Shown here: piece after piece, positions 3,993 to 30,770 of the stretch
Position numbering within the stretch: the stretch's first letter is position 1
Layout: each line of letters starts with the position of its first letter
Program-made: the position numbers and the translations under genes
Notes under the pieces: model-generated
Told to the model about the DNA's origin: nothing
The model's database searches: none
The model's input: only the letters and a program-made list of their open reading frames with translations
Virus record (IMG/VR): IMGVR_UViG_3300029904_000004
Coordinates: 1-64,000 of that record
DNA length: 64,000 bases
Source: a virus
Direction: 5' to 3' (one strand)

Positions 3993-4502
3993 ATGGAAAC
4001 AAAAGACAAAATCATCCAGTTATTAAACACCACAAAGACTGGTAGTGTGAAAATACTTGTAAGTATGACTTATGAACACAGTTCAAGTTATACGACAACT
4101 ATTATGGCACGCAAGGTAAGCTTGTTAGGTAAGAATGACCTCTGTATAACGAATATAAATGGTAATTTATATCCTATCAGTGACCGAATTCGTAACAGAG
4201 ATGGAGTATTAGACGCTATACTTTCGCAAGTTATGACCGCTACTAATAAGCAAAAGTACTATGCGTTTATGCCATTCTTTCATTGGGGTGAGATAATGGA
4301 TGAAAAACCTGAACCAGATGGTGTAAAGGTATTTGGTGATTACGTGTTGGCAAATATTTGTAAGACAACAGATTACAATCTTGCCATGACTCTTTATGCT
4401 GAAACTCCTTGTCCTGCAAGTCAATTAGTTGAAGCAAACTCTTGGGAAGAACTCGATGAAAAAATTGAGGAAACGAAAAAGCTTTTTGACAAGCGAGAAT
4501 AA
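3993..4502 (+). CDS. hypothetical protein, paralog of 682..1260
   Basis: ORF track. Shares the C-terminal motif block with 682..1260. Confidence 0.75.
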   Translation: METKDKIIQLLNTTKTGSVKILVSMTYEHSSSYTTTIMARKVSLLGKNDLCITNINGNLYPISDRIRNRDGVLDAILSQVMTATNKQKYYAFMPFFHWGEIMDEKPEPDGVKVFGDYVLANICKTTDYNLAMTLYAETPCPASQLVEANSWEELDEKIEETKKLFDKRE

Positions 4503-10752: not shown

Positions 10753-10786
10753 CTTAAGTTTAACTATTTAAATCATTATCAAAATG
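10752..10786 (+). promoter_or_regulatory. conserved gene leader TAATTAAC...AAATCATTATCAAAATG (best copy)
   Basis: Near-identical leaders end at the start codons at 6568, 9252, 9529, 10784, 14460 and 16015. Confidence 0.6.
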
Positions 10787-11275
10787 GCAAAACAAAAAAA
10801 TCAAGCACAGACAACAGCTCCTGCAAAACCAGTTGAAGCAACAGAAGAAAGCGTAATGGATGTAATCCGTAATCAGAACATCGGTGAAAAGTCAGTCGCA
10901 GAAGAAGTCGACAAACGAATGAAAAACGAGAAAAACGAACGACTGATTGAAGACACCAAACGCAAAGTTGCTGCAGCAGAGTACAACAACATGAAGGCTC
11001 TCTTGATGTTGCGTCTTCGCCGGCGTGAGGAGCGTGCTACGAAGGAGTATCTGAAGTCAACAAAGGAACTCCTTGACAAGTTGAAGGGATATACAGACGA
11101 GAAAGGTGAATTTGTAGAACCTACACTCACCATATTCCAGTATGAAGGCGAACGTGATAAGATTATCAAAGCAAAGCGTGAAGCATTCCGCGATGCTGAT
11201 AAGGTTTATCGAGACGAACTGTCTGAACTTCGCTATCAGTATCCTCAATACTGGTCGTATGAATGGGATGAGTAA
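10784..11275 (+). CDS. charged coiled-coil-like protein (163 aa)
   Basis: ORF track. K/E/R-rich; conserved leader upstream. Confidence 0.7.
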   Translation: MAKQKNQAQTTAPAKPVEATEESVMDVIRNQNIGEKSVAEEVDKRMKNEKNERLIEDTKRKVAAAEYNNMKALLMLRLRRREERATKEYLKSTKELLDKLKGYTDEKGEFVEPTLTIFQYEGERDKIIKAKREAFRDADKVYRDELSELRYQYPQYWSYEWDE

Positions 11276-12183
11276 TCCTGCTCGTATACACTAAAATCAT
11301 CCGCACAAGAACCTTAGAGTCACGTGCTGGTGTTTATTAATCGAGGATTACAGGAGTTTAATCAAAATTAATAACCACCGTCTATGAATTGACATAGAAT
11401 CAAAGAGCCTTGGAGCCATGTAGGATGTAAAACTCTCAAAATAGGGAGAATAAACTATATTATCTTTTTACCACCAATCATTGGTTACAATTTGAGAACC
11501 TTTGAGTCATTGTGTATTATTGAATTTGCTCTGATACATAACAAATTGTAAATCAAAAAGCGTTGTATAGCCTCAAGAACCGCAGAGTCACGAGATTACT
11601 ATATGTATTTCAATCATATTCTTTATACAACACGTGTTAGACTCATTTATTTGCGTTTTAAGAGCTTCAAAAATCGTCGATGGATTAGCTACCCATAAGC
11701 GAGAACTGAGGCGATTAGAGCGCATTTAAATGACGTTTTAGGGCATTTTGAGTTTGCTACTCAATTTGCCCACTATTTGTTCTCAAGTGATTATGACGCA
11801 AATATTATGGACCGCAGTTCGAGTCTGCGCACGTCCACGACCTCTTATTCACTGTTTGACATAATAAACACTTGGCTCAGGCATGTTGTGAAACACCCTG
11901 AGTTTTTAATACGGGCGTGACAGGATTTGACATAATAGGAGATAAGTATGATGGGAACAGATGTTCAAACAATAAATGGCAATGTAAACAACATTGTTGA
12001 CTACACTCACGTAGCGTGAGCACAGTCATTAAGTAGCTGTACTTAATTAATTAAAACAGTAAGGAGCCTGGCACCCAGATGGTAAGTGGTTGATGTTATA
12101 TAGGAGAGTTATTTAAATAACCTTGTATATAGCTATAAAAGTTCATGGTTCGAGTCCATGCAGGCTCCCAAAATCAATTTATT
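11276..12183 (+). other. ORF-free region with periodic repeats and T-arm-like hairpins; candidate structured RNA(s) or regulatory array
   Basis: The track has no ORF of 60 aa or more in any frame here. Four copies of an AGAACC-NN-(A/T)GAGTCA-like motif occur at about 11307, 11403, 11494 and 11575. GGTTCGAGTCC-type hairpins lie at 11809-11836 and 12144-12160. Confidence 0.5.
12063..12168 (+). other. tRNA-like element (acceptor-type 7-8 bp helix plus canonical T-arm) of non-canonical length (~105 nt)
   Basis: GGAGCCTG at 12063-12070 pairs with CAGGCTCC at 12161-12168. T-arm is CATGG-TTCGAGT-CCATG. The middle part folds as a long AT-rich hairpin and I could not fit a normal D arm or anticodon arm by eye. 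Confidence 0.3.
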
Positions 12184-13441: not shown

Positions 13442-13999
13442 ATGAACAGTCTCAAAAACGCAGTGACGATTGAGACTATCAAACAAGCTCAACAAGGGTC
13501 TGTAAAAGCATTTAACAAAATATTTTATGAATATAAATCTTTTGTAGAATATATTCTACGAGATTATATAAAAGATGATGATGAAGCTAAAGATTTAGCG
13601 AATATTGTTTTCTTAAAAATTCATGATAAGTTAATGTCTTTTACGGACTATGTTAATTTTAAAGGGTGGATTCGTACAATTACGAAGAACACTGCTATTG
13701 ATTATCTTAGAACCATAAAAGAAAAAATGGTTTCTATAGATGATACGGAACGAAATGTTCAGTTAAATGAAGACGAAATAGACAAAGAAAAGTCTTATAC
13801 AGACCGATATACTTACGATTACGTAGTAAATATGTTCGATTCATTACCTGAACAATACTCTCGAATATGTAAGATGTTTTATATAAACAATCTTACTATT
13901 AATCAGATTTCAAAAAAGCTCAATGTGCCAAAGGGAACTATTAAGTCGTATTTGCATAGAGCCCGTTCAATAATCAAAAACCAGTTAAAATTATGTTAA
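13442..13999 (+). CDS. ECF-type (sigma-70 family group 4) RNA polymerase sigma factor
   Basis: Region 2-like DEAKDLANIVFLKIHDKLMSF...FKGWIRTITKNTAIDYLR. Region 4-like LPEQYSRICKMFYINNLTINQISKKLNVPKGTIKSYLHRARSIIKNQL. Confidence 0.85.
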   Translation: MNSLKNAVTIETIKQAQQGSVKAFNKIFYEYKSFVEYILRDYIKDDDEAKDLANIVFLKIHDKLMSFTDYVNFKGWIRTITKNTAIDYLRTIKEKMVSIDDTERNVQLNEDEIDKEKSYTDRYTYDYVVNMFDSLPEQYSRICKMFYINNLTINQISKKLNVPKGTIKSYLHRARSIIKNQLKLC

Positions 14000-16425: not shown

Positions 16426-18498
16426 TGATTAGGTCTCATTAGCCTGATATAACAATGAAATACTTCAAAAGTAACTGGGTGGGAGAATATGTTAGCCTCC
16501 TCAAGAGGTGAGAAACTCAAAAGGTACCACGAAAGGCATATTGCGTGAAAAACAATATGTCAGTAGGGAGAGCGTTGTATCAACCCTAACATTTTGTATA
16601 TGAGAACCGACTGGAGATATACAATCTAAGGAAGACGCGTAAGTCGTGAGTTGACAATCATGCAAAACGAACCGTAGCTAATACTCTTTATTATTCGATA
16701 CAGATAATATTGGTAACGTTACAAGTGCTGCAAGATATAAGTCTCCAAAACTTATATTATGTATCAACAATGCTTACTCTAGTGTTTCTGCGTTCCAAGC
16801 GTAGTATAAAGGGAGGACAATAATCGGAGTAATAGTAGAGAAGGACTTGGTAGATATTCTATGATTTAGATTAGGGTATGTCAAATAGACCAAGCTGTAT
16901 GGTAAATACAGTGTCTAGATAAATCCGTACTGTTTGATTCAGTAGCCTTTTGAGTCATTAAAGGGTCCAGAGATGCGGTAAAAATTATGGCTGAGAAAAC
17001 TACTACCGACCGCCAGGCCTTGGTCGTTCATGCGGTATATAAAAGTGGAATGACCAGATGTATGGGGCAAATACATAGCGTCTAGAGTCCGCGTTCATAG
17101 GACTGAAGACAGAATTGTGGTATGTGCATTAGCAACACAAAACACATGAAATAGATGTTAATGAGATGACTACTTGACAGTCAAAAGAAGGCATTTTAAT
17201 GCTTGGATGCCCGAAAGAAATAAGCATACATTAGTTGATTCGAGGTATAGCACGCCAGCTATAACTGACCTCCACTAATGCCAGTAAAATGTTATAATCC
17301 CTATTTACAGATATATTCATAGAATTATATAATATCTATTATTCTCTATGTAAAGAGAAAGAACCTATTACACTAAGGAATAATGATAGTTATTACATAT
17401 GATAGTAGTGCATATAATTAGAGTATTGAAATAAAGAAAAAGATTATACATAAAGGTGTAGGAGAAAAGCTACATATTAAGTATTCTCACAAAGTAACAT
17501 TGTTTAACAAAAATCGATGTCCTCCGGATGTGAAAAACCTTATGTTGTAAATAAGAAGTAACTCCCGGAAAGTTCGAGTGCCAACCGTTATGTGGTAACC
17601 AGACTAAACTTTACATGTGAAAATGTGAAGGTAAATCTAAAGGTAGAACCAATACAGAAAGATAAGTAGGCAGCTCATGCTCAGTATCGCAGTGCAGTAA
17701 GCGTATGCGTGTTAGTGATGAACTAACCTTGGTGTATACTGTCTCTATACATCAGGAAAGTATGAGTGGGTGATAACTATTTAGTATGTATTCAGTTAAA
17801 TTCTGACGTATTCGCGCACTATAAATAAAGTTGGTTTTTAGTAAGGTTTTCCGTAGAATAACCACCGTAGACTCGTAGATACCCACTGAAGGCTAGAGTG
17901 TTCGATAATGAAACGTTTGGTTGTTTACGTTAAAAACAATACGTGGAGACTATTGATTGTTCTACCTGCCACAAGTAAAGGGAGAACAGGGGTAGCTGCG
18001 CCTAATCAGGTATCGCAAGACAGGATTACAGCAGCGGAGAATGACCACTCCTTAAAACACTTATATCCAAGTCTGGGAAACAAGGATATTTGAATCTTAT
18101 CGGTTTAACTTAATCTGGCAGAGTATATCTACGATTCCGCGAAACATTAGATATATATCTGTCAGATAAAAACAATTAGTTTTCTATTCCAAAAAAGAGT
18201 TTGCATATGAAATGCTAAATGTCATTCGAAGCTTTCCTGGGATATGGTTAATATGGGTTATGAAGCTTAGCTAATCCTACCATTGGATTCTTCTGTTATA
18301 TTGAGCCTCCTCGAACGAGTAATAGTATATAACAAGCCTGTATTGTATTAAAGCGAATCTTTAGCTACAAAGATAACATTAAAAAGAAAAACTCTGGAAT
18401 CAAAACAAACAAAAAGCTCGTGTAAAGCTGATTTACACATTAGTAATAAAATTTGTCGTGGGTGGAATCAACCACGATATCAAAAAGGACAAATTTTT
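16426..18498 (+). other. 2.07-kb ORF-free region; candidate large structured non-coding RNA(s)
   Basis: The track shows only one marginal 61-aa ORF (17908..18093) in six frames. Several GC-rich hairpins are visible (for example AGTCC-GCGTTCATA-GGACT near 17085 and CGACC...GGTCG near 17008). It shares motifs with the 11.3-12.2 kb and 20.57-20.66 kb regions. Confidence 0.45.
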
Positions 18499-19744: not shown

Positions 19745-19820
19745 GACTCTATAGCTCAGTTGGTAGAGCAACAGGCTTTTAATCTGTGGGTCCAGAGTTC
19801 GAATCTCTGTAGAGTCACCA
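19745..19820 (+). tRNA. tRNA-Lys (anticodon UUU), CCA encoded
   Basis: Hand-folded cloverleaf. Acceptor GACTCTA/TAGAGTC. D-arm GCTC-AGTTGGTA-GAGC. Anticodon arm ACAGG-CTTTTAA-TCTGT. T-arm CAGAG-TTCGAAT-CTCTG. Ends in ACCA. Confidence 0.85.
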
Positions 19821-20440: not shown

Positions 20441-20498
20441 ACTATATGCATAGGGCAGTCCTTAGAGAAGTGTGGTTCGAGTCCCACTATAGTAACCA
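20441..20498 (+). other. truncated tRNA-like minihelix (acceptor stem + T-arm + ACCA, no D-arm)
   Basis: TACTATA pairs with TATAGTA. The T-arm is GTG(T)GG-TTCGAGT-CCCAC and the element ends in ACCA. Only ~21 nt lie between the acceptor stem and the T-arm, and no 7-nt anticodon loop could be folded. Confidence 0.3.
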
Positions 20499-20603
20499 AT
20501 TCGGTCTCGTCTATCGGAAACATCGCTTCCTTCTTTTTCAAGCATAATATCAGTTTTTAATTTTTGTTAGTTGGTTTTTGTTTGTATTAGTAAGGCGTTG
20601 AGG

Positions 20604-20655
20604 ACGTATGCGTAGTGATACGTATAAAAGATAGGTTCGACTCCTATGACCGAAC
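20604..20655 (+). other. tRNA-like 3' module (hairpin with 8-nt loop + perfect T-arm)
   Basis: ACGTAT-GCGTAGTG-ATACGT hairpin, then ATAGG-TTCGACT-CCTAT, then GACCGAA. The only complement (TTCGGTC) lies ~150 nt upstream at 20500-20506. Confidence 0.25.
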
Positions 20656-20788
20656 TATTTATTTTCGATTTAACGGCCTTTCTTTGCCTCTGTGAGTAAT
20701 TATACTACTTTAGCCATGACATGCGCTCAGAACGCAAGGAAATGGCCTTAAATCGAATGTTTTGTTTAACCATTAAAGCATAATCAAT

Positions 20789-21593: not shown

Positions 21594-21679
21594 GCCTCGA
21601 TGATGGAACTGGGAGACATTTAACACTTAAAATGTTATGTTCCGTAAGGAACGTGTGGGTTCGAATCCCACTCGAGGTA
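21594..21679 (+). tRNA. tRNA-Leu (anticodon UAA), class II with long variable arm
   Basis: Acceptor GCCTCGA/TCGAGGT. 3-bp D-stem ATG/CAT. Anticodon arm TAACA-CTTAAAA-TGTTA. Variable arm GTTCC-GTAA-GGAAC. T-arm GTGGG-TTCGAAT-CCCAC. Confidence 0.8.
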
Positions 21680-21773
21680 CTATACCGTTAGCATGTTGTT
21701 GTTAATTTAGTTTTTTTCGAGTACGGTGGTTCGCGAGAATAGCCGTATTTTTATTATTAAGAGTCCGTGAACC

Positions 21774-23633
21774 ATGATAATACACGATAAAACAGTAATA
21801 ATATATGATATAGAATCGTTTCCAAATTTCTTTTGTTGTACATGTAAGAATACAGAAACTCAAAGTATAAGAACATTTGAGATTTCTCTAAGACAAAGTG
21901 ACATATTAGAATTAAGTAATTACTTTTCAAAGAAAGAATTATTATTTTGTGGATATAATAATAAACATTACGACGATGTTGTAATAAATTATATTATTAT
22001 GTATGCAGAAAAAATGATTCAATTTCCAAAATTACGTATTACTGATTCTATTTTCAATTTGTCGCAATATATAATAAAAGAAGATATTGATAAATATAAG
22101 CGATTTAAATATGCAAATTTGTTTGAATCTATGGATTTACTAACTATGATGTTTAGTAGTAAATTAAGAGTAGGTTTGAAAGAAATGCAATTGACAATGC
22201 ATTACGATAATGTACTCGAATATGAAGGTGACTTTAATGATTATGTACAACCTGAAGATTATTCTAAAATAATTGAGTACAATATAAATGACGTAGAATC
22301 TACTACTTGTTTGTTTAATAAACTTGTAGATAAAGGAGAAATAGATTTACGTTTATTCATTGAAGAAGAATACGGATTCAATGCGCTTTCAATGGATAGT
22401 GTCAAGTTTGGAGAAACAATTCTGGCTAAAAAAGTTTGTGAAGAATTACACATAGACAAAAGACAACTAGAAAAAATGCGTTCCCCAATGGACATGATTC
22501 CATTGAAAGATGTCATATTACCGTTTATAAAATATAAAAATCCGAAATTTCAACAAGTTCTTGAAGATATGAAAGAGCAAATAGTATCTTCTAAAGAACG
22601 TAAAAGCTACGAGAATAAGTTCGTTGTCTCGAATTTACAGTATTCTATAGGAATTGGTGGAATACATTCTATCAATAAACCAAGGATATATGTTCCTAAA
22701 GAAGACGAATATATTGGACATCTTGATGTTGCTTCAATGTATCCGAGTTTCATTGTGCAGTATGGGTGGTTTCCTACTCAATTAGGTAAAGCAGGTTTGG
22801 ACGTGTATATAGATTTATATTACCAAAGGTTACACGCCAAACATAGCGGGCAGAAACTTAAGAATCTTGCTCTAAAATTGGTTCTTAATTCTGTTACAGG
22901 AAAAATGCAACAAGAGACCTCTTGGTTATACGACCCGAAGAGTGTATTTAAAATAAGAATAAATGGGCAATTAGTCTTATTGATGCTTGCAGATATCTTA
23001 CTTCAATATAATTGTGAGATAATACAAGTAAATACAGATGGTGTGATGTTTATTGCTAAGAAAGATAGAGAATCAGATATAATGGAATCGGTATCTGAAC
23101 TTGAGCGATTAACTAAATTGTCTTTTGAAGCGGACCGCTATGAAGCGTTTTATCAATACGCCGTTAACGACTATTTCGGTGTGGTTAACGAAAATAAGAT
23201 AGAAAAAAAAGGTATGTTTATAACAGAAAACAAATTGGGTAAAGGACTCACACCAACCATTATTCCAAAAGCTGTTATAGCATACTTTACTAAACATATC
23301 CCTATAAGGGATACAATACGTAATTGTAATGATATATATGAATTCTTGATGGCCCAAAGAGTTGATAAAAAATTCAAGATAGAATATAATAATCATTACG
23401 TTCAACGTATAAACAGATATTATGCAAGTACAAAAGGTTATTGGCTTTATAAAATAAAACACGAAAACGGAAAAGAAAGCTTTGAAAACATGCTTACTAA
23501 ATCTGGTGTAAAAATATTGAATAAAATCGATAATACTGACGTACCTGATGATATAAACTATGCGTATTATGAAAGTGAAGCACGAAAAATTATTAATGAT
23601 TTAGAGTGTAGACAACTTGATTTATTTGCATAG
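21774..23633 (+). CDS. family-B DNA polymerase, terminates on TAG
   Basis: Exo motifs YDIES, YNNKHYDDVV and YNINDVES. Polymerase motifs DVASMYPS (A), KLVLNSVTGK (B) and QVNTDGV (C). Stop is TAG, with TAA five codons later. Confidence 0.9.
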   Translation: MIIHDKTVIIYDIESFPNFFCCTCKNTETQSIRTFEISLRQSDILELSNYFSKKELLFCGYNNKHYDDVVINYIIMYAEKMIQFPKLRITDSIFNLSQYIIKEDIDKYKRFKYANLFESMDLLTMMFSSKLRVGLKEMQLTMHYDNVLEYEGDFNDYVQPEDYSKIIEYNINDVESTTCLFNKLVDKGEIDLRLFIEEEYGFNALSMDSVKFGETILAKKVCEELHIDKRQLEKMRSPMDMIPLKDVILPFIKYKNPKFQQVLEDMKEQIVSSKERKSYENKFVVSNLQYSIGIGGIHSINKPRIYVPKEDEYIGHLDVASMYPSFIVQYGWFPTQLGKAGLDVYIDLYYQRLHAKHSGQKLKNLALKLVLNSVTGKMQQETSWLYDPKSVFKIRINGQLVLLMLADILLQYNCEIIQVNTDGVMFIAKKDRESDIMESVSELERLTKLSFEADRYEAFYQYAVNDYFGVVNENKIEKKGMFITENKLGKGLTPTIIPKAVIAYFTKHIPIRDTIRNCNDIYEFLMAQRVDKKFKIEYNNHYVQRINRYYASTKGYWLYKIKHENGKESFENMLTKSGVKILNKIDNTDVPDDINYAYYESEARKIINDLECRQLDLFA

Positions 23634-29314: not shown

Positions 29315-30279
29315 ATATAACAATTCCATATTACGATGATGTTTCGCGTATCTCAAATTCTAATATAGGCTGGTTCATTAAATATGGGCCGGCCTATTTG
29401 CATAAAATGCTGACAACTCACCCAGAAGAACAAAGTACAGCAGCCATGCGAAAAGGTACAATGATACATATGTATTTATTACAACCTGAAGAATTTGTAA
29501 ATACGTATGAACAAAAGGATTTTATAGAACCTAAATCTGTACAACAGAAAAAGTTCTGTGAAAGCCTTATAAATACATTAGAAATAGAGCCAAATAAAGC
29601 CCTTCTGAGCGCATATAAAGATAGTTATAGTACAGTTGGCCAGTCAGAGGATTTAATGCTCTCTAAAGCAAAGGAAATGGCCTCTACGTTTAAATCTTAC
29701 ATCGAGTATAATAAAAACCCGAACAGTAAGACTAAAATATCACGATATGATGTAGCAATGCTTGAAAATATACGTGATAAAGTACAGGAACATAAACTTG
29801 CAAAAGAACTTATAAATCCTAAAGAAGGAGAAACACACCACGAGTTTCATATAAACTGGGAACATTGTGATGTACAATGTAAATCGTTATTGGATAGTGT
29901 CAACTTTAATTTTAAAGCTAAAATATGTACACTTGTAGATTTAAAAACTACTGTACATATTGGTTGTTTTGAAGAAAGTATGAAAGAATATGATTATTTA
30001 AGACAACTCTGTTTTTATCAGGAAGCTTTAAAATGGTATATAAGTAATGAATTACATCAAGACCCGATGGATTGGATGTTTGATGTATACATTGTAGCTA
30101 TAGACACTGTAAACGATAATGAGATACGTGTATTTAGGTTTTATCCTTCACAGATTAAGTCACGTTTACAAACTATCGAAAATGTCTTAAAAGAGATTAA
30201 ATGGCATCAAGATACTGATAAATGGGAACATCACAAACAATATTATGACGGTGATGGAAGTGAAACATTGAGCCTATGA
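29311..30279 (+). CDS. RecB/Cas4-family PD-(D/E)xK exonuclease
   Basis: LVDLKTT (DxK) followed by QLCFYQEAL (QxxxY). ATGA overlaps on both sides. Confidence 0.75.
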   Translation: MNITIPYYDDVSRISNSNIGWFIKYGPAYLHKMLTTHPEEQSTAAMRKGTMIHMYLLQPEEFVNTYEQKDFIEPKSVQQKKFCESLINTLEIEPNKALLSAYKDSYSTVGQSEDLMLSKAKEMASTFKSYIEYNKNPNSKTKISRYDVAMLENIRDKVQEHKLAKELINPKEGETHHEFHINWEHCDVQCKSLLDSVNFNFKAKICTLVDLKTTVHIGCFEESMKEYDYLRQLCFYQEALKWYISNELHQDPMDWMFDVYIVAIDTVNDNEIRVFRFYPSQIKSRLQTIENVLKEIKWHQDTDKWEHHKQYYDGDGSETLSL

Positions 30280-30770
30280 GCCTAAAACTAAAAACAATAA
30301 TTCCTTTTATAGATAAAAATATAACTGAAAAAGATGTATCTCCATGTTCAGGTTTTATTGAAGCGTATCGTTTTGATGAAAACAGACCTAATATTAGAGA
30401 TTGTATATTTTTAGTATATGATGCAAGTATGCATAGTATAGAACAATTCGAACGATTACATAAGTTTAAAAACTTTAAATCGTTACGTAGCACGGTACTT
30501 TATACTATAAAAGGGAAAAAATATACAATTTATGCATTTACAATTACAGATAAAAGTTTATTATTAAATTTAGACAATGCTGTAACATTTGTTCATAATC
30601 CTGCCCGTGTTTTGCAATTTTGGGGCGTGTCTGATGAACACTTTGTGAACAATGTTGTATGTCCGGATAAAATAATATATCCCGACAATACGTATATCCC
30701 AGAAAAGGATTTTATTCCTGATCTGAATGATGTACGTAAAATGCATAAATTAAGGGTGGCCGCTTCGTAA
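30276..30770 (+). CDS. hypothetical protein (164 aa), last gene of the plus-strand block
   Basis: ORF track. Confidence 0.65.
   Translation: MSLKLKTIIPFIDKNITEKDVSPCSGFIEAYRFDENRPNIRDCIFLVYDASMHSIEQFERLHKFKNFKSLRSTVLYTIKGKKYTIYAFTITDKSLLLNLDNAVTFVHNPARVLQFWGVSDEHFVNNVVCPDKIIYPDNTYIPEKDFIPDLNDVRKMHKLRVAAS

What the first reader, a model, noticed from the sequence alone, without database searches (positions are those of the whole stretch)
11276..12183. A 0.9-kb ORF-free region with a four-fold ~90-nt periodic motif and tRNA-like modules
Four copies of AAGAACC-NN-AGAGTCA-YG lie 96, 91 and 81 nt apart:
- 11307 AAGAACCTTAGAGTCACGTG
- 11403 AAGAGCCTTGGAGCCATGTAG
- 11494 GAGAACCTTTGAGTCATTGTG
- 11575 AAGAACCGCAGAGTCACGAG

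They are followed by a T-arm-like hairpin, GGAC-CGCAG-TTCGAGT-CTGCG-CAC-GTCC (11809-11836). After that comes a ~105-nt element with a perfect 8-bp acceptor-type helix and canonical T-arm (12063-12168) but no recognisable anticodon arm. The arrangement suggests an array of small structured RNAs, protein-binding iterons, or a processed polycistronic RNA. If the 12063 element is an intron-bearing or otherwise atypical tRNA, it is a place where a suppressor could hide.
Basis: seen in the sequence. Interest (0 to 1): 0.7.

Follow-up and report, generated by a model that had tools for sequence, protein, structure and literature searches.

The report
Phage tmRNA locus with operator hairpins
The gap holds a two-piece ribosome-rescue RNA (tmRNA) gene of a crAss-like gut phage, preceded by four hairpins whose loop motif also sits on the start codons of replication genes, which suggests an undescribed translational control system.

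Summary
The "T-arm hairpin" belongs to a circularly permuted (two-piece) tmRNA gene (11778-12019; Rfam RF04321 66.8 bits, cut-off 47; ARAGORN tag GNVNNIVDYTHVA). The gene is already annotated in the RefSeq relative crAssphage cr124_1.

The four repeats are neither iterons nor plain promoter copies. Each is a 15-18 nt hairpin loop holding two pentamers 8 nt apart, closed by a stem that covaries across phages. The loop motif is strand-specific. It recurs at the DNA polymerase start codon (window 21751-21783) and, in relatives, at the sigma-factor, AAA-ATPase and DNA polymerase starts. Every copy in a genome uses that lineage's version (GARYC/GAATC or GUAUC).

I read these hairpins as RNA operators for an unidentified phage RNA-binding regulator. 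The four-copy array would act as a decoy or loading platform transcribed with the tmRNA. This step is inferred.

The 12063-12169 element is a tRNA-derived acceptor/T-arm minihelix with no anticodon arm. In relatives its body shrinks to 2 nt or the element is absent, so it is most likely an RNase P/Z processing signal for the tmRNA coding piece, not a suppressor tRNA.

The parts
11303..11327 (+). Unit 1 hairpin: stem GCAC/GUGC closing the 17-nt loop AAGAACCUUAGAGUCAC
   Evidence: Read. Closing-stem covariation is shown. CM R1 scores it 31 bits, though it was a training member.
11329..11379 (+). Long hairpin inside unit 1 (arms 11329-11341 / 11367-11379, 92% complementary)
   Evidence: inverted repeat I4. 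The equivalent helix covaries in cr124-like contigs (pairs 52-57/100-105).
11381..11398 (+). Hairpin UCUAUG-AAUUGA-CAUAGA, 4 nt before unit 2
   Evidence: Six lineages keep the AAUURA loop on different stems: UGAUG/CAUCA, AGAAUG/CAUUCU, AAGCG/CGCUU, AAAUG/CAUUU, UAGUG/CACUA.
11403..11420 (+). Unit 2 motif AA-GAGCC-UUG-GAGCC-AUG; the closing stem is weak in this phage
   Evidence: Unit 2 is GAGCC..GAGCC in the window, L025 and L002, and has an 8-bp stem in cr124-like phages.
11433..11448 (+). Hairpin CUCUC-AAAAUA-GGGAG inside unit 2
   Evidence: Covaries with CUCCG..CGGAG in L025. L052 keeps the same CUCUC/GGGAG stem with a slightly different loop (AAAACA). L002 has CUCC..GGAG.
11486..11514 (+). 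Unit 3 hairpin: stem UACAAU/AUUGUG closing the loop UUGA-GAACCUUUGAGUC
   Evidence: CM R1 scores it 17.9 bits, and it was not in the training set.
11566..11603 (+). Unit 4 hairpin: outer UAUAG/CUAUA, inner CUC/GAG, loop AA-GAACCGCAGAGUC-AC
   Evidence: The same two-tier arrangement occurs in cr124_1: UAUAGCCCUCU...GAGGAUUACUAUA.
11643..11733 (+). Long conserved helix enclosing the hairpin AUGG-AUUAGCUA-(C)CCAU (11680-11696)
   Evidence: inverted repeat I1. The orthologous helix GCGCUCUGAGGCA/UGUCUUAGAGCGC covaries in 26 cr124-like sequences. The GGAKUAGCUAMCC loop is conserved in all lineages read.
11741..11771 (+). Hairpin GGGCA...UGCCC immediately 5' of tmRNA helix P2
   Evidence: The orthologous hairpin AAAUGUUCUGA..UCGGAACAUUU is seen.
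11778..11837 (+). tmRNA acceptor piece core: P2 3' strand (11778-11808), T-arm (11813-11829), 3' acceptor strand CACGUCC (11830-11836) and discriminator A11837; CCA is not encoded
   Evidence: Rfam RF04321 alignment; ARAGORN tmRNA*; covariation test.
11838..11912 (+). Intervening sequence removed on maturation; contains a hairpin with the conserved loop CAUGUUGURAAAC
   Evidence: Its length varies from about 40 to about 230 nt between relatives.
11913..12062 (+). tmRNA coding piece: 5' acceptor strand GGGCGUG (11913-11919, G3.U70), P2 5' strand, tag reading frame 11978-12019 (GNVNNIVDYTHVA, stop UGA), hairpin 12028-12047 and tail
   Evidence: The tag differs from cr124_1 by three synonymous changes and one replacement. 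The post-stop hairpin covaries with L052: AUUAAGUA/UACUUAAU versus AUCAGGUA/UACCUGAU.
12063..12169 (+). tRNA-derived element: 8-bp acceptor helix, D-like arm, long AU hairpin with a 4-nt loop in place of an anticodon arm, canonical T-arm (12144-12160), then C12169
   Evidence: There is no tRNA call. The body is variable or absent in relatives.
21751..21783 (+). Same hairpin at the DNA polymerase start: stem UAUUAUU/GAUAAUA, loop AA-GAGUCCGUGAACC-AU, with the AUG (21774) spanning the loop edge and the first stem base
   Evidence: The ORF is a DNA polymerase (phrog_1252, E 1e-137). CM R1 scores it 27 bits. Orthologous operators occur in L052 and Dulem virus 42.
18124..18155 (+). Probable further member: stem UAUAUCUA/UAGAUAUA, loop C-GAUUCCGCGAAAC-AU, upstream of ORF 18499
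   Evidence: Motif copies sit upstream of the equivalent gene in cr124_1 (28337) and L025, where the following ...GTTAGTTAATCAATAAC.ATATCAAAAAGGA stretch is shared. The window retains only ATATCAAAAAGGA before ORF 18499.
30270..30282 (+). GAGCC-UAU-GAGCC with the AUG of ORF 30276-30770 inside the spacer; weak flanking stem, so less certain
   Evidence: The same 'pentamer-U-AUG-' arrangement occurs at the AAA-ATPase start of Dulem virus 42.

Best explanation
The 0.9-kb gap is one non-coding locus of a crAss-like phage (Suoliviridae-like) with three parts.

(1) Two-piece tmRNA. This part is shown at sequence level. The gene is circularly permuted. The acceptor piece (P2 3' strand, T-arm, 3' acceptor strand) comes first, then an intervening sequence, then the coding piece (5' acceptor strand with G3.U70, P2 5' strand, 13-codon tag).
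- Inferred: host RNase P cuts before G11913. RNase Z or exonucleases trim after A11837, and CCA is added afterwards because it is not encoded.
- Inferred: the two pieces pair, alanyl-tRNA synthetase charges the RNA, and with SmpB it rescues stalled ribosomes and adds (A)GNVNNIVDYTHVA.

(2) Structured leader of about 470 nt, 5' of the acceptor piece. It carries four hairpins. Each displays two pentamers 8 nt apart (AA-GARYC-NNN-GARYC-AY) in a 15-18 nt loop. The hairpin structure and the recurrence of the motif at translation starts are shown.
- Inferred: the hairpins are RNA recognition sites (operators) for a sequence-specific, probably dimeric, phage-encoded RNA-binding protein.
- Inferred: on mRNAs that protein would cover the start codon and control translation of replication and transcription genes. 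Here these are the DNA polymerase and ORF 30276. In relatives they are the sigma factor, the AAA_24 ATPase and the DNA polymerase.
- Inferred: the four-copy array, made together with the abundant tmRNA, would act as a decoy or sponge for that protein, or as a loading platform.

(3) tRNA-derived acceptor/T-arm minihelix, directly 3' of the coding piece.
- Inferred: it serves as an RNase P/RNase Z cleavage signal that defines the 3' end of the coding piece and frees the downstream mRNA.
For: tmRNA:
- RF04321 scores 66.8 bits against a cut-off of 47. ARAGORN reports a permuted tmRNA with a tag.
- In 8 lineages all 12 acceptor and T-stem pairs form. G1-C72, G2-C71 and G3.U70 are invariant, 9 of 12 pairs change on both sides, and the covariation score is 0.78 against 0.18 in shuffles.
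- The tag peptide is conserved as GN[VIDL]NNIVDYT[HNCRK]VA (GNLNIADYTKLVA in L025), with mostly synonymous differences.
- The syntenic gene is annotated as tmRNA in NC_055899.
- A one-piece tmRNA lies in the phi14:2 intergenic region that was reported as an abundant early and persistent non-coding transcript.

Hairpins:
- 91% of 68 unique motif contexts have a closing stem of at least 4 bp, against 29% of random positions.
- On 24 diverse units the 5-bp stem is 80.8% paired, against 49% in shuffles and 33-49% when slid. All 5 pairs covary (score 0.79 against 0.23; 0 of 500 shuffles reach it).
- Other leader helices covary too.
- The motif is strand-specific. In the window it occurs 7 times on + and 0 on -. 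In cr124_1 there are 7 copies on one strand, none on the other, against about 0.1 expected per strand.
- Copies outside the array sit on start codons:
  - window DNA polymerase;
  - L052 DNA polymerase;
  - Dulem virus 42 DNA polymerase and AAA ATPase;
  - cr124_1 sigma factor and RecA-like gp77;
  - L025 sigma factor.
- A covariance model built without them recovers the Dulem and L052 polymerase sites and the L025 sigma site at E 8e-4 to 0.02.
- Orthologous sites keep their position but change motif version together with the array: GUAUC in cr124-like phages, GARYC/GAAUC elsewhere.

Minihelix:
- The acceptor and T stems are always complementary, with different sequences.
- The body ranges from 2 nt to about 80 nt, even among contigs whose tmRNA is nearly identical.
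Against: - There is no expression, end-mapping or binding data for this phage.
- No RNA-binding protein candidate emerged from Pfam or PHROGs scans of the + strand ORFs.
- Whether the regulator represses or activates, and whether the array is a decoy, cannot be read from sequence.
- Some mRNA sites lack a clear closing stem: the cr124 sigma start and window 30270.
- One cr124 site (28337) lies about 110 nt upstream of its gene rather than on the start codon.
- In this window the loose motif count outside the array (2 sites) is close to chance. The argument therefore rests on position, hairpin geometry and cross-genome orthology.
- Unit 2 in this window has only a weak stem.
- The PK1 hairpin of the Rfam model is not formed in the alignment.
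- No SmpB gene was found among the ORFs scanned.
- Several lineages lack the minihelix (Dulem virus 42, L076, L058), so it is not essential to the tmRNA.
Confidence: 0.6

Rival explanations
1. The four hairpins and the rest of the leader are only the structural 5' domain of the tmRNA acceptor piece. They would be the topological equivalent of pseudoknots PK2-PK4 of one-piece tmRNAs, aiding folding and stability, with no trans-acting partner.
For: The leader lies directly 5' of the P2 3' strand, which is where PK2-PK4 sit in the unpermuted topology. It is conserved next to the tmRNA in every lineage examined, including genes interrupted by a T-loop intron. The coding piece has only about 43 nt after the stop codon, so no pseudoknot domain lies there.
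Against: It does not explain why the loop sequence, rather than only the helices, is the most conserved part. It does not explain why the same hairpin sits on the start codons of the polymerase, sigma and ATPase genes. It does not explain why all copies in a genome switch motif version together.
Confidence: 0.13
2. The motif is a DNA-level signal. It would be either four tandem promoters for a phage-specific RNA polymerase or sigma factor driving high tmRNA expression, or binding sites of a DNA-binding regulator.
For: The copies are oriented, strand-specific and lineage-specific, and stand in tandem ahead of a highly expressed stable RNA. The phage encodes its own ECF-type sigma factor at 13442-13999. 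One cr124 copy lies about 110 nt upstream of a gene. Promoters of the crAss virion polymerase are unknown.
Against: Flanking bases covary to keep a hairpin, which duplex DNA sites do not need. At several genes the start codon lies upstream of or inside the motif: cr124 and L025 sigma, window 30276 and the Dulem ATPase. A transcript starting downstream would lack that start codon. Pentamers 8 nt apart do not fit -35/-10 spacing. Sigma-70-like sites are not enriched.
Confidence: 0.12
3. The hairpins are cleavage sites for a sequence-specific endoribonuclease. This would parallel T4 RegB inactivating early mRNAs at their initiation regions. The enzyme would also cut the leader into roughly 90-nt pieces and free the acceptor piece.
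For: It rests on the same evidence as the operator model: RNA hairpins, start-codon positions and lineage-specific motif versions. The unit spacing of 81-96 nt would give discrete products.
Against: No nuclease candidate was found. The conserved helices between units suggest a folded whole rather than spacers. Sequence alone cannot separate this model from the repressor model.
Confidence: 0.12
4. One reading: replication iterons, an array of independent small RNA genes, or an atypical or intron-bearing suppressor tRNA at 12063.
For: TAG is read through in the minus-strand late genes. ORFs of 1,749 and 5,699 codons appear only when TAG is not a stop, so a tRNA-CUA must exist somewhere. The region is AT-rich and ORF-free.
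Against: - Spacing of 96/91/81 nt is not helically phased, and the copies sit in RNA-type hairpin loops.
- The 12063 element has a 4-nt loop on a long AU hairpin and no 7-nt loop with CUA.
- It gets no tRNA hit at E<=10.
- Its body is replaced or deleted in relatives.
Confidence: 0.03

Closest known systems
Two-piece (circularly permuted) tmRNA of Alphaproteobacteria, some Betaproteobacteria and Cyanobacteria (Rfam RF04321, RF01849-51; PMC11915505)
   Same: The gene order is acceptor piece, intervening sequence, coding piece. It has a T-arm, a G3.U70 acceptor stem, helix P2 and a short tag frame ending in Ala. Maturation by tRNA-processing enzymes is expected.
   Different: It is carried by a Bacteroidales-type phage. 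The tag ends in -VA, not -AA. CCA is not encoded. It has a 470-nt structured leader and a trailing tRNA-like minihelix. The PK1 of the model is not evident. Some relatives also carry a group I intron in the T-loop.
Phage translational operators: T4 RegA and gp43 operators, MS2/PP7 coat-protein hairpins
   Same: Short RNA hairpins or sequences overlap the start codons of replication genes and are specific to each phage lineage. A DNA polymerase start codon sits at the edge of a hairpin.
   Different: The loop is large (15-18 nt) and holds two direct pentamers. The binding protein is unknown. Nothing has been tested experimentally. There is an extra four-copy array away from any gene.
Protein-sponge RNAs CsrB/RsmZ (Csr/Rsm system)
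   Same: Several hairpins display in their loops the same short motif found at the initiation regions of target mRNAs.
   Different: The motif is different (two pentamers, not GGA). The array is fused to a tmRNA gene. No CsrA-like protein was detected.
tRNA-like 3'-end processing signals: mascRNA at the 3' end of MALAT1, and mitochondrial tRNA punctuation
   Same: A tRNA-like acceptor/T-arm module placed directly after a non-coding RNA could let RNase P create that RNA's 3' end.
   Different: Here the module follows a tmRNA coding piece in a phage. Its body is evolutionarily unstable, ranging from 2 to about 80 nt. Cleavage has not been shown.
Large ornate phage-associated RNAs near tRNA genes (GOLLD, ROOL)
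   Same: It is a long, conserved, structured non-coding RNA in a phage, next to tRNA-type genes.
   Different: No Rfam match was found, even at E<=10. The architecture differs: repeated operator-like hairpins.

Membership tests
Permuted (two-piece) tmRNA | Covariance-model score above the curated threshold | tested here: met
   RF04321 scores 66.8 bits against a gathering score of 47, E 1e-10. Relatives L001, L052, L058 and L076 also pass.
Permuted (two-piece) tmRNA | T-arm plus a 7-bp acceptor stem with the G3.U70 alanine identity pair, formed between the upstream 3' strand and the downstream 5' strand | tested here: met
   GGGCGUG (11913-19) pairs with CACGUCC (11830-36). In 8 lineages pairing is 100%, G3.U70 is invariant, and 9 of 12 pairs covary.
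Permuted (two-piece) tmRNA | Tag reading frame with a stop codon, conserved as a peptide | tested here: met
   The frame is 11978-12019. The tag is conserved as GN[VIDL]NNIVDYT[HNCRK]VA, with GNLNIADYTKLVA in L025 and mostly synonymous differences.
Permuted (two-piece) tmRNA | Pseudoknot PK1 upstream of the tag | tested here: inconclusive
   The Rfam alignment marks the PK1 hairpin positions as non-paired or deleted. This was not examined further.
Permuted (two-piece) tmRNA | Processing into two pieces, alanylation, SmpB-dependent tagging | not testable with these tools
   No SmpB domain was found in the + strand ORFs scanned. The TAG-recoded minus-strand genes were not scanned. A host SmpB is presumed.
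tRNA (element 12063-12169) | Cloverleaf with an anticodon arm (5-bp stem, 7-nt loop) that tRNA models recognise | tested here: not met
   ARAGORN makes no call. RF00005 gives no hit at E<=10. The fold shows a long AU hairpin with a 4-nt loop.
tRNA (element 12063-12169) | Acceptor stem stacked on a canonical T-arm | tested here: met
   8 bp plus 5 bp with a TTCGAGT loop. The L025 ortholog reaches 32.7 bits on RF00005.
Suppressor tRNA-CUA | CUA anticodon preceded by U33 in a 7-nt loop | tested here: not met
   The only CUA (AGCUAUA) is preceded by G and lies in an unpaired linker. Orthologs have no conserved body.
Replication iterons | Tandem duplex-DNA repeats with regular, helically phased spacing, independent of strand | tested here: not met
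   Spacing is 96/91/81 nt. The copies lie in covarying hairpin loops, are strand-specific, and also occur at start codons.
Sigma-70-type tandem promoters | -35/-10 hexamers with 16-18 nt spacing, enriched over chance | tested here: not met
   4 sites were found against 4.4 expected, and none coincides with the motifs in a consistent way.
Translational operator / sponge RNA pair (RegA-like or Csr-like logic) | The same RNA motif at initiation regions of several mRNAs and in multiple copies in a non-coding RNA | tested here: met
Translational operator / sponge RNA pair (RegA-like or Csr-like logic) | An identified RNA-binding protein that binds the motif and changes translation | not testable with these tools
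   No candidate came from Pfam or PHROGs.
Any described RNA family for the leader | Match to an Rfam 15 model | tested here: not met
   Only chance-level hits in 11276-11777 at E<=10.

The most novel reading that the evidence does not exclude
crAss-like phages of this group run a previously undescribed post-transcriptional regulon. A phage-encoded protein would read a two-pentamer hairpin loop placed on the start codons of the DNA polymerase, sigma-factor and ATPase genes. A four-hairpin decoy would be physically part of the mature acceptor piece of the phage's own two-piece tmRNA. That would couple the level of ribosome-rescue RNA to translation of replication and transcription genes during infection.
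Probability: 0.3. Interest if true: 0.85.

Novelty: new variant of a known kind. Interest (0 to 1): 0.66.

Why it matters
- crAss-like phages are the most abundant viruses of the human gut, and their gene regulation is almost unknown.
- The tmRNA itself is already in databases, but nothing has been written about its biology in these phages.
- The hairpin set gives a concrete, testable handle on post-transcriptional control of the replication module. The sites are defined, the motif versions are lineage-specific, and a natural four-copy array is available. This should allow the binding protein to be fished out.
- The locus also suggests a function for the abundant early 'long non-coding RNAs' reported in the model crAss-like phage phi14:2. 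One of those regions contains a tmRNA gene.
- The evolutionarily unstable tRNA minihelix after the coding piece offers a natural series for studying minimal RNase P/Z substrates.

Tried and rejected
- Rfam at permissive thresholds on the leader gave only chance hits.
- A single-protein search for relatives of the upstream ORF in viral contigs found nothing. Relatives were then collected by DNA patterns from the tag and from the motif.
- RNAalifold on the whole 530-nt cr124-like leader did not predict the large-loop motif hairpins, although it recovered other covarying helices. The motif hairpins therefore needed a targeted test.
- I looked for sequences complementary to the pentamers, such as pseudoknot partners or T-loops. 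None was consistent across lineages. This was by eye, and not exhaustive.
- The short ORFs that start at the AUG after some motifs are not conserved, so they were rejected as coding.
- Pfam and PHROGs scans of about 35 + strand ORFs gave no RNA-binding, SmpB or nuclease candidate.
- A search of the tmRNA database paper's supplements for phage entries returned nothing.
- Literature searches for crAss tmRNA biology or translational repression found no relevant paper.
- A look for comparable repeated hairpins in the first 9 kb of phi14:2 was inconclusive.
Full report
**What the window is.**
BLAST of the region against phage genomes hits crAssphage cr124_1 (NC_055899; Crassvirales, Suoliviridae) and Dulem virus 42, and the neighbouring genes are syntenic. 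The finding occupies the gap between ORF 10784-11275 and a gene starting at ATG 12184, all on the + strand. The minus-strand late genes only form long ORFs when TAG is read through (1,749 and 5,699 codons). This phage therefore recodes TAG, as some crAss-like lineages are known to do (my own knowledge).

**Check of the observation.**
- The four motif copies, their spacing (96, 91, 81 nt), the T-arm and the 105-nt acceptor/T-arm element are all present as described.
- The 16-nt pattern occurs 4 times against 0.19 expected, and nowhere else in the window.

**Part 1: the 'T-arm hairpin' is a permuted tmRNA.**
- Rfam's tmRNA_permuted model matches 11778-12019 at 66.8 bits (threshold 47). ARAGORN calls a permuted tmRNA with the tag GNVNNIVDYTHVA.
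- The 3' acceptor strand CACGUCC-A (11830-11837) pairs with GGGCGUG (11913-11919) downstream. This gives the G3.U70 pair that marks alanine acceptors. CCA is not encoded.
- I extracted the same segments by hand from eight diverged relatives. All 12 acceptor and T-stem pairs form in every sequence. G1-C72, G2-C71 and G3.U70 never change, and nine pairs change on both sides (covariation 0.78 against 0.18 in shuffles).
- The tag is conserved as a peptide, with mainly synonymous DNA differences.
- The syntenic gene in cr124_1 is already annotated as tmRNA. RF04321 was built in a study that catalogued 79 phage tmRNAs (PMC11915505). This part is therefore known at database level, although I found no paper discussing it for crAss-like phages.
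- The model crAss-like phage phi14:2 has a one-piece tmRNA (ARAGORN; RF00023 46 bits, E 2.6e-16) at 4031-4500. That position lies inside the ORF-free g004-g006 gap, and transcripts from these intergenic regions were reported as abundant, early and persistent, with unknown function (bioRxiv 10.1101/2020.03.07.982082). I take this as indirect evidence that such loci are strongly expressed.

**Part 2: the four repeats are hairpin loops, and the motif is a genome-wide signal.**

*Relatives collected.*
- I gathered 22 viral and 62 metagenomic contigs using a tag pattern, plus one more using the motif.
- Most lineages have four copies at the same place. One (L076/L079) shows two hairpins with a related loop, and L030-like contigs lack a recognisable motif.
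- cr124-like phages use GTATC-N3-GTATC. The window, L025, L052 and Dulem virus 42 use GARYC-type pentamers.
- The units are positional orthologs. For example, unit 2 is GAGCC..GAGCC in three diverged phages.

*The motif sits in a hairpin loop.*
- Each motif lies in a 15-18 nt loop closed by a short stem.
- 91% of 68 unique contexts have a stem of at least 4 bp, against 29% of random positions.
- On 24 diverse units, at one fixed geometry, the five stem pairs are 80.8% paired. The figure is 49% in shuffles and 33-49% when the partner is slid. All five pairs covary.
- Other helices of the 470-nt leader covary as well. One hairpin keeps an AAUURA loop on six different stems.
- The leader is therefore a conserved structured RNA, not a set of duplex-DNA sites.

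*The motif recurs at gene starts.*
- It is strictly strand-specific, and the copies outside the array sit at gene starts.
- In the window, 21751-21783 has the same geometry as the array units: AA-core-AU loop and a 7-bp stem. The AUG of ORF 21774 spans the loop edge, and that ORF is the DNA polymerase (phrog_1252, E 1e-137).
- The polymerase starts of L052 and Dulem virus 42 carry the same hairpin on different stems.
- In cr124_1 all seven GTATC-N3-GTATC copies lie on the early-gene strand, against about 0.1 expected per strand. They are:
  - the four array copies;
  - one at codons 2-6 of the sigma-factor gene;
  - one abutting the AUG of the RecA-like/AAA gp77 gene;
  - one about 110 nt upstream of gp68.
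- L025 has a GAATC-version copy at the sigma start, and another upstream of the gp68-like gene.
- Dulem virus 42 has one with the ATPase AUG in its spacer. Window 30270 has the same arrangement at ORF 30276.
- A hairpin at window 18124-18155 looks like a further, more degenerate member upstream of ORF 18499.
- A covariance model built only from array units plus the window polymerase site recovered three sites it had not seen, the Dulem and L052 polymerase sites and the L025 sigma site, at E 8e-4 to 0.02, all on the early-gene strand.

**Interpretation of part 2.**

Several features fit an RNA operator read by a phage-encoded sequence-specific protein:
- the RNA hairpins;
- positions from about 13 nt before to 13 nt after start codons;
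- start codons lying upstream of or inside several copies;
- a motif version that changes in concert at all sites of a genome.

The logic would be that of T4 RegA or gp43, or the MS2 coat protein. The four-copy array would resemble CsrB/RsmZ-type decoys (comparisons from my own knowledge). Many array units even keep AUG or ACG just after the motif, like the mRNA sites.

The structure and the distribution are shown. The protein, the direction of regulation and the decoy role are inferred, and no candidate protein was found.

The main rivals are listed below.
- The leader could be a purely structural substitute for tmRNA pseudoknots. It does lie exactly where PK2-PK4 would be in the unpermuted topology. 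This does not explain the mRNA copies.
- The motifs could be DNA-level promoters or operators. The covarying stems and the start codons upstream of the motif argue against this.
- The hairpins could be endoribonuclease sites. Sequence cannot separate this from the repressor model.

**Part 3: the 12063-12169 element.**
- It keeps a perfect acceptor helix and T-arm but has no anticodon arm. Neither ARAGORN nor Rfam recognises it, even at E<=10.
- Orthologs sit immediately after the coding piece in most lineages. Their body is extremely unstable.
- cr124-like contigs, whose sequence just before the element is almost unchanged, show at least seven body variants. These range from about 50 nt down to a bare acceptor/T-arm minihelix with a 2-nt linker.
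- L052, the relative most similar to the window in the tag and flanking sequence, has a minihelix of about 50 nt. L025 has a weak tRNA (32.7 bits; ARAGORN calls it Ile-UAU) and L028 an ARAGORN 'tRNA-Asn'. Dulem virus 42, L076 and L058 have none.
- The acceptor and T stems always stay complementary while their sequences differ. Selection therefore acts on the minihelix, which is the part recognised by RNase P, RNase Z and the CCA-adding enzyme (my own knowledge).
- The simplest reading is a processing signal that sets the 3' end of the coding piece at 12062, as mascRNA does for MALAT1. A degenerating tRNA gene or a stabilising 3' tRNA-like cap remains possible.
- It is not a plausible hiding place for the TAG suppressor.

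**Verdict.**
- The tmRNA is already known.
- The operator-like hairpin set and its association with the tmRNA appear undescribed. This is the interesting part, and it rests on comparative sequence evidence only.

Noticed in passing
L009 5507-5799 (-); also L024, L044, L070, L081: In several cr124-like contigs the permuted tmRNA gene has an insertion of about 810 nt inside the T-loop. It contains a group I intron (RF00028, 81 bits) on the tmRNA strand. A 'permuted plus T-loop intron' gene is not among the forms tabulated in PMC11915505. The four-hairpin array is intact upstream.
   Followed up: partly
window 30849-64000, minus strand: The late genes read through TAG: ORFs of 1,749, 5,699, 559, 704 and 1,627 codons appear only if TAG is not a stop. 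ARAGORN finds only tRNA-Lys(UUU) at 19745 and tRNA-Leu(UAA) at 21594 in the window, so the expected tRNA-CUA is elsewhere or non-canonical.
   Followed up: partly
window 20441-20497 and 20500-20656: Two more non-canonical tRNA-like elements lie between the real tRNAs. The first is about 57 nt, with TACTATA/TATAGTA, a bulged T-arm and an encoded ACCA end. The second is about 157 nt, with TTCGGTC/GACCGAA, the T-arm ATAGG-TTCGACT-CCTAT, and a U-rich insertion of about 80 nt where the D-loop would be. Neither gets an Rfam tRNA hit at E<=1.
   Followed up: partly
window 16426-18498: A 2-kb stretch has no ORF of 120 aa or more. It contains the motif-like hairpin at 18124-18155 and may be another non-coding RNA region.
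   Followed up: no
L091 (phi14:2, NC_021806) 4031-4500: A one-piece tmRNA (tag GSSVQKLAMVA) lies inside the intergenic region that the phi14:2 transcriptome paper describes as an abundant early non-coding RNA of unknown function. Both crAss-type tags end in -VA rather than -AA.
   Followed up: partly
L052 about 480-510 (region coordinates): The tmRNA of this close relative has a T-stem (GAGGU/ACCUC) but a non-canonical T-loop, GGCGGUA instead of UUCGANN. It still passes RF04321 (51.3 bits).
   Followed up: no
window 11855-11866 and 11926-11937: The exact 12-nt repeat TTTGACATAATA occurs once in the intervening sequence and once in the tRNA-like domain (GGAUUUGACAUAAUAGG). The intervening copy could compete for the P2 3' strand in the precursor. 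The intervening sequence also has a hairpin with a conserved loop, CAUGUUGURAAAC.
   Followed up: no
window 13442-13999: The phage encodes an ECF-type sigma factor (Sigma70_r2/r4). Its orthologs in cr124_1 and L025 carry the hairpin motif in their first codons. The window's copy does not.
   Followed up: partly
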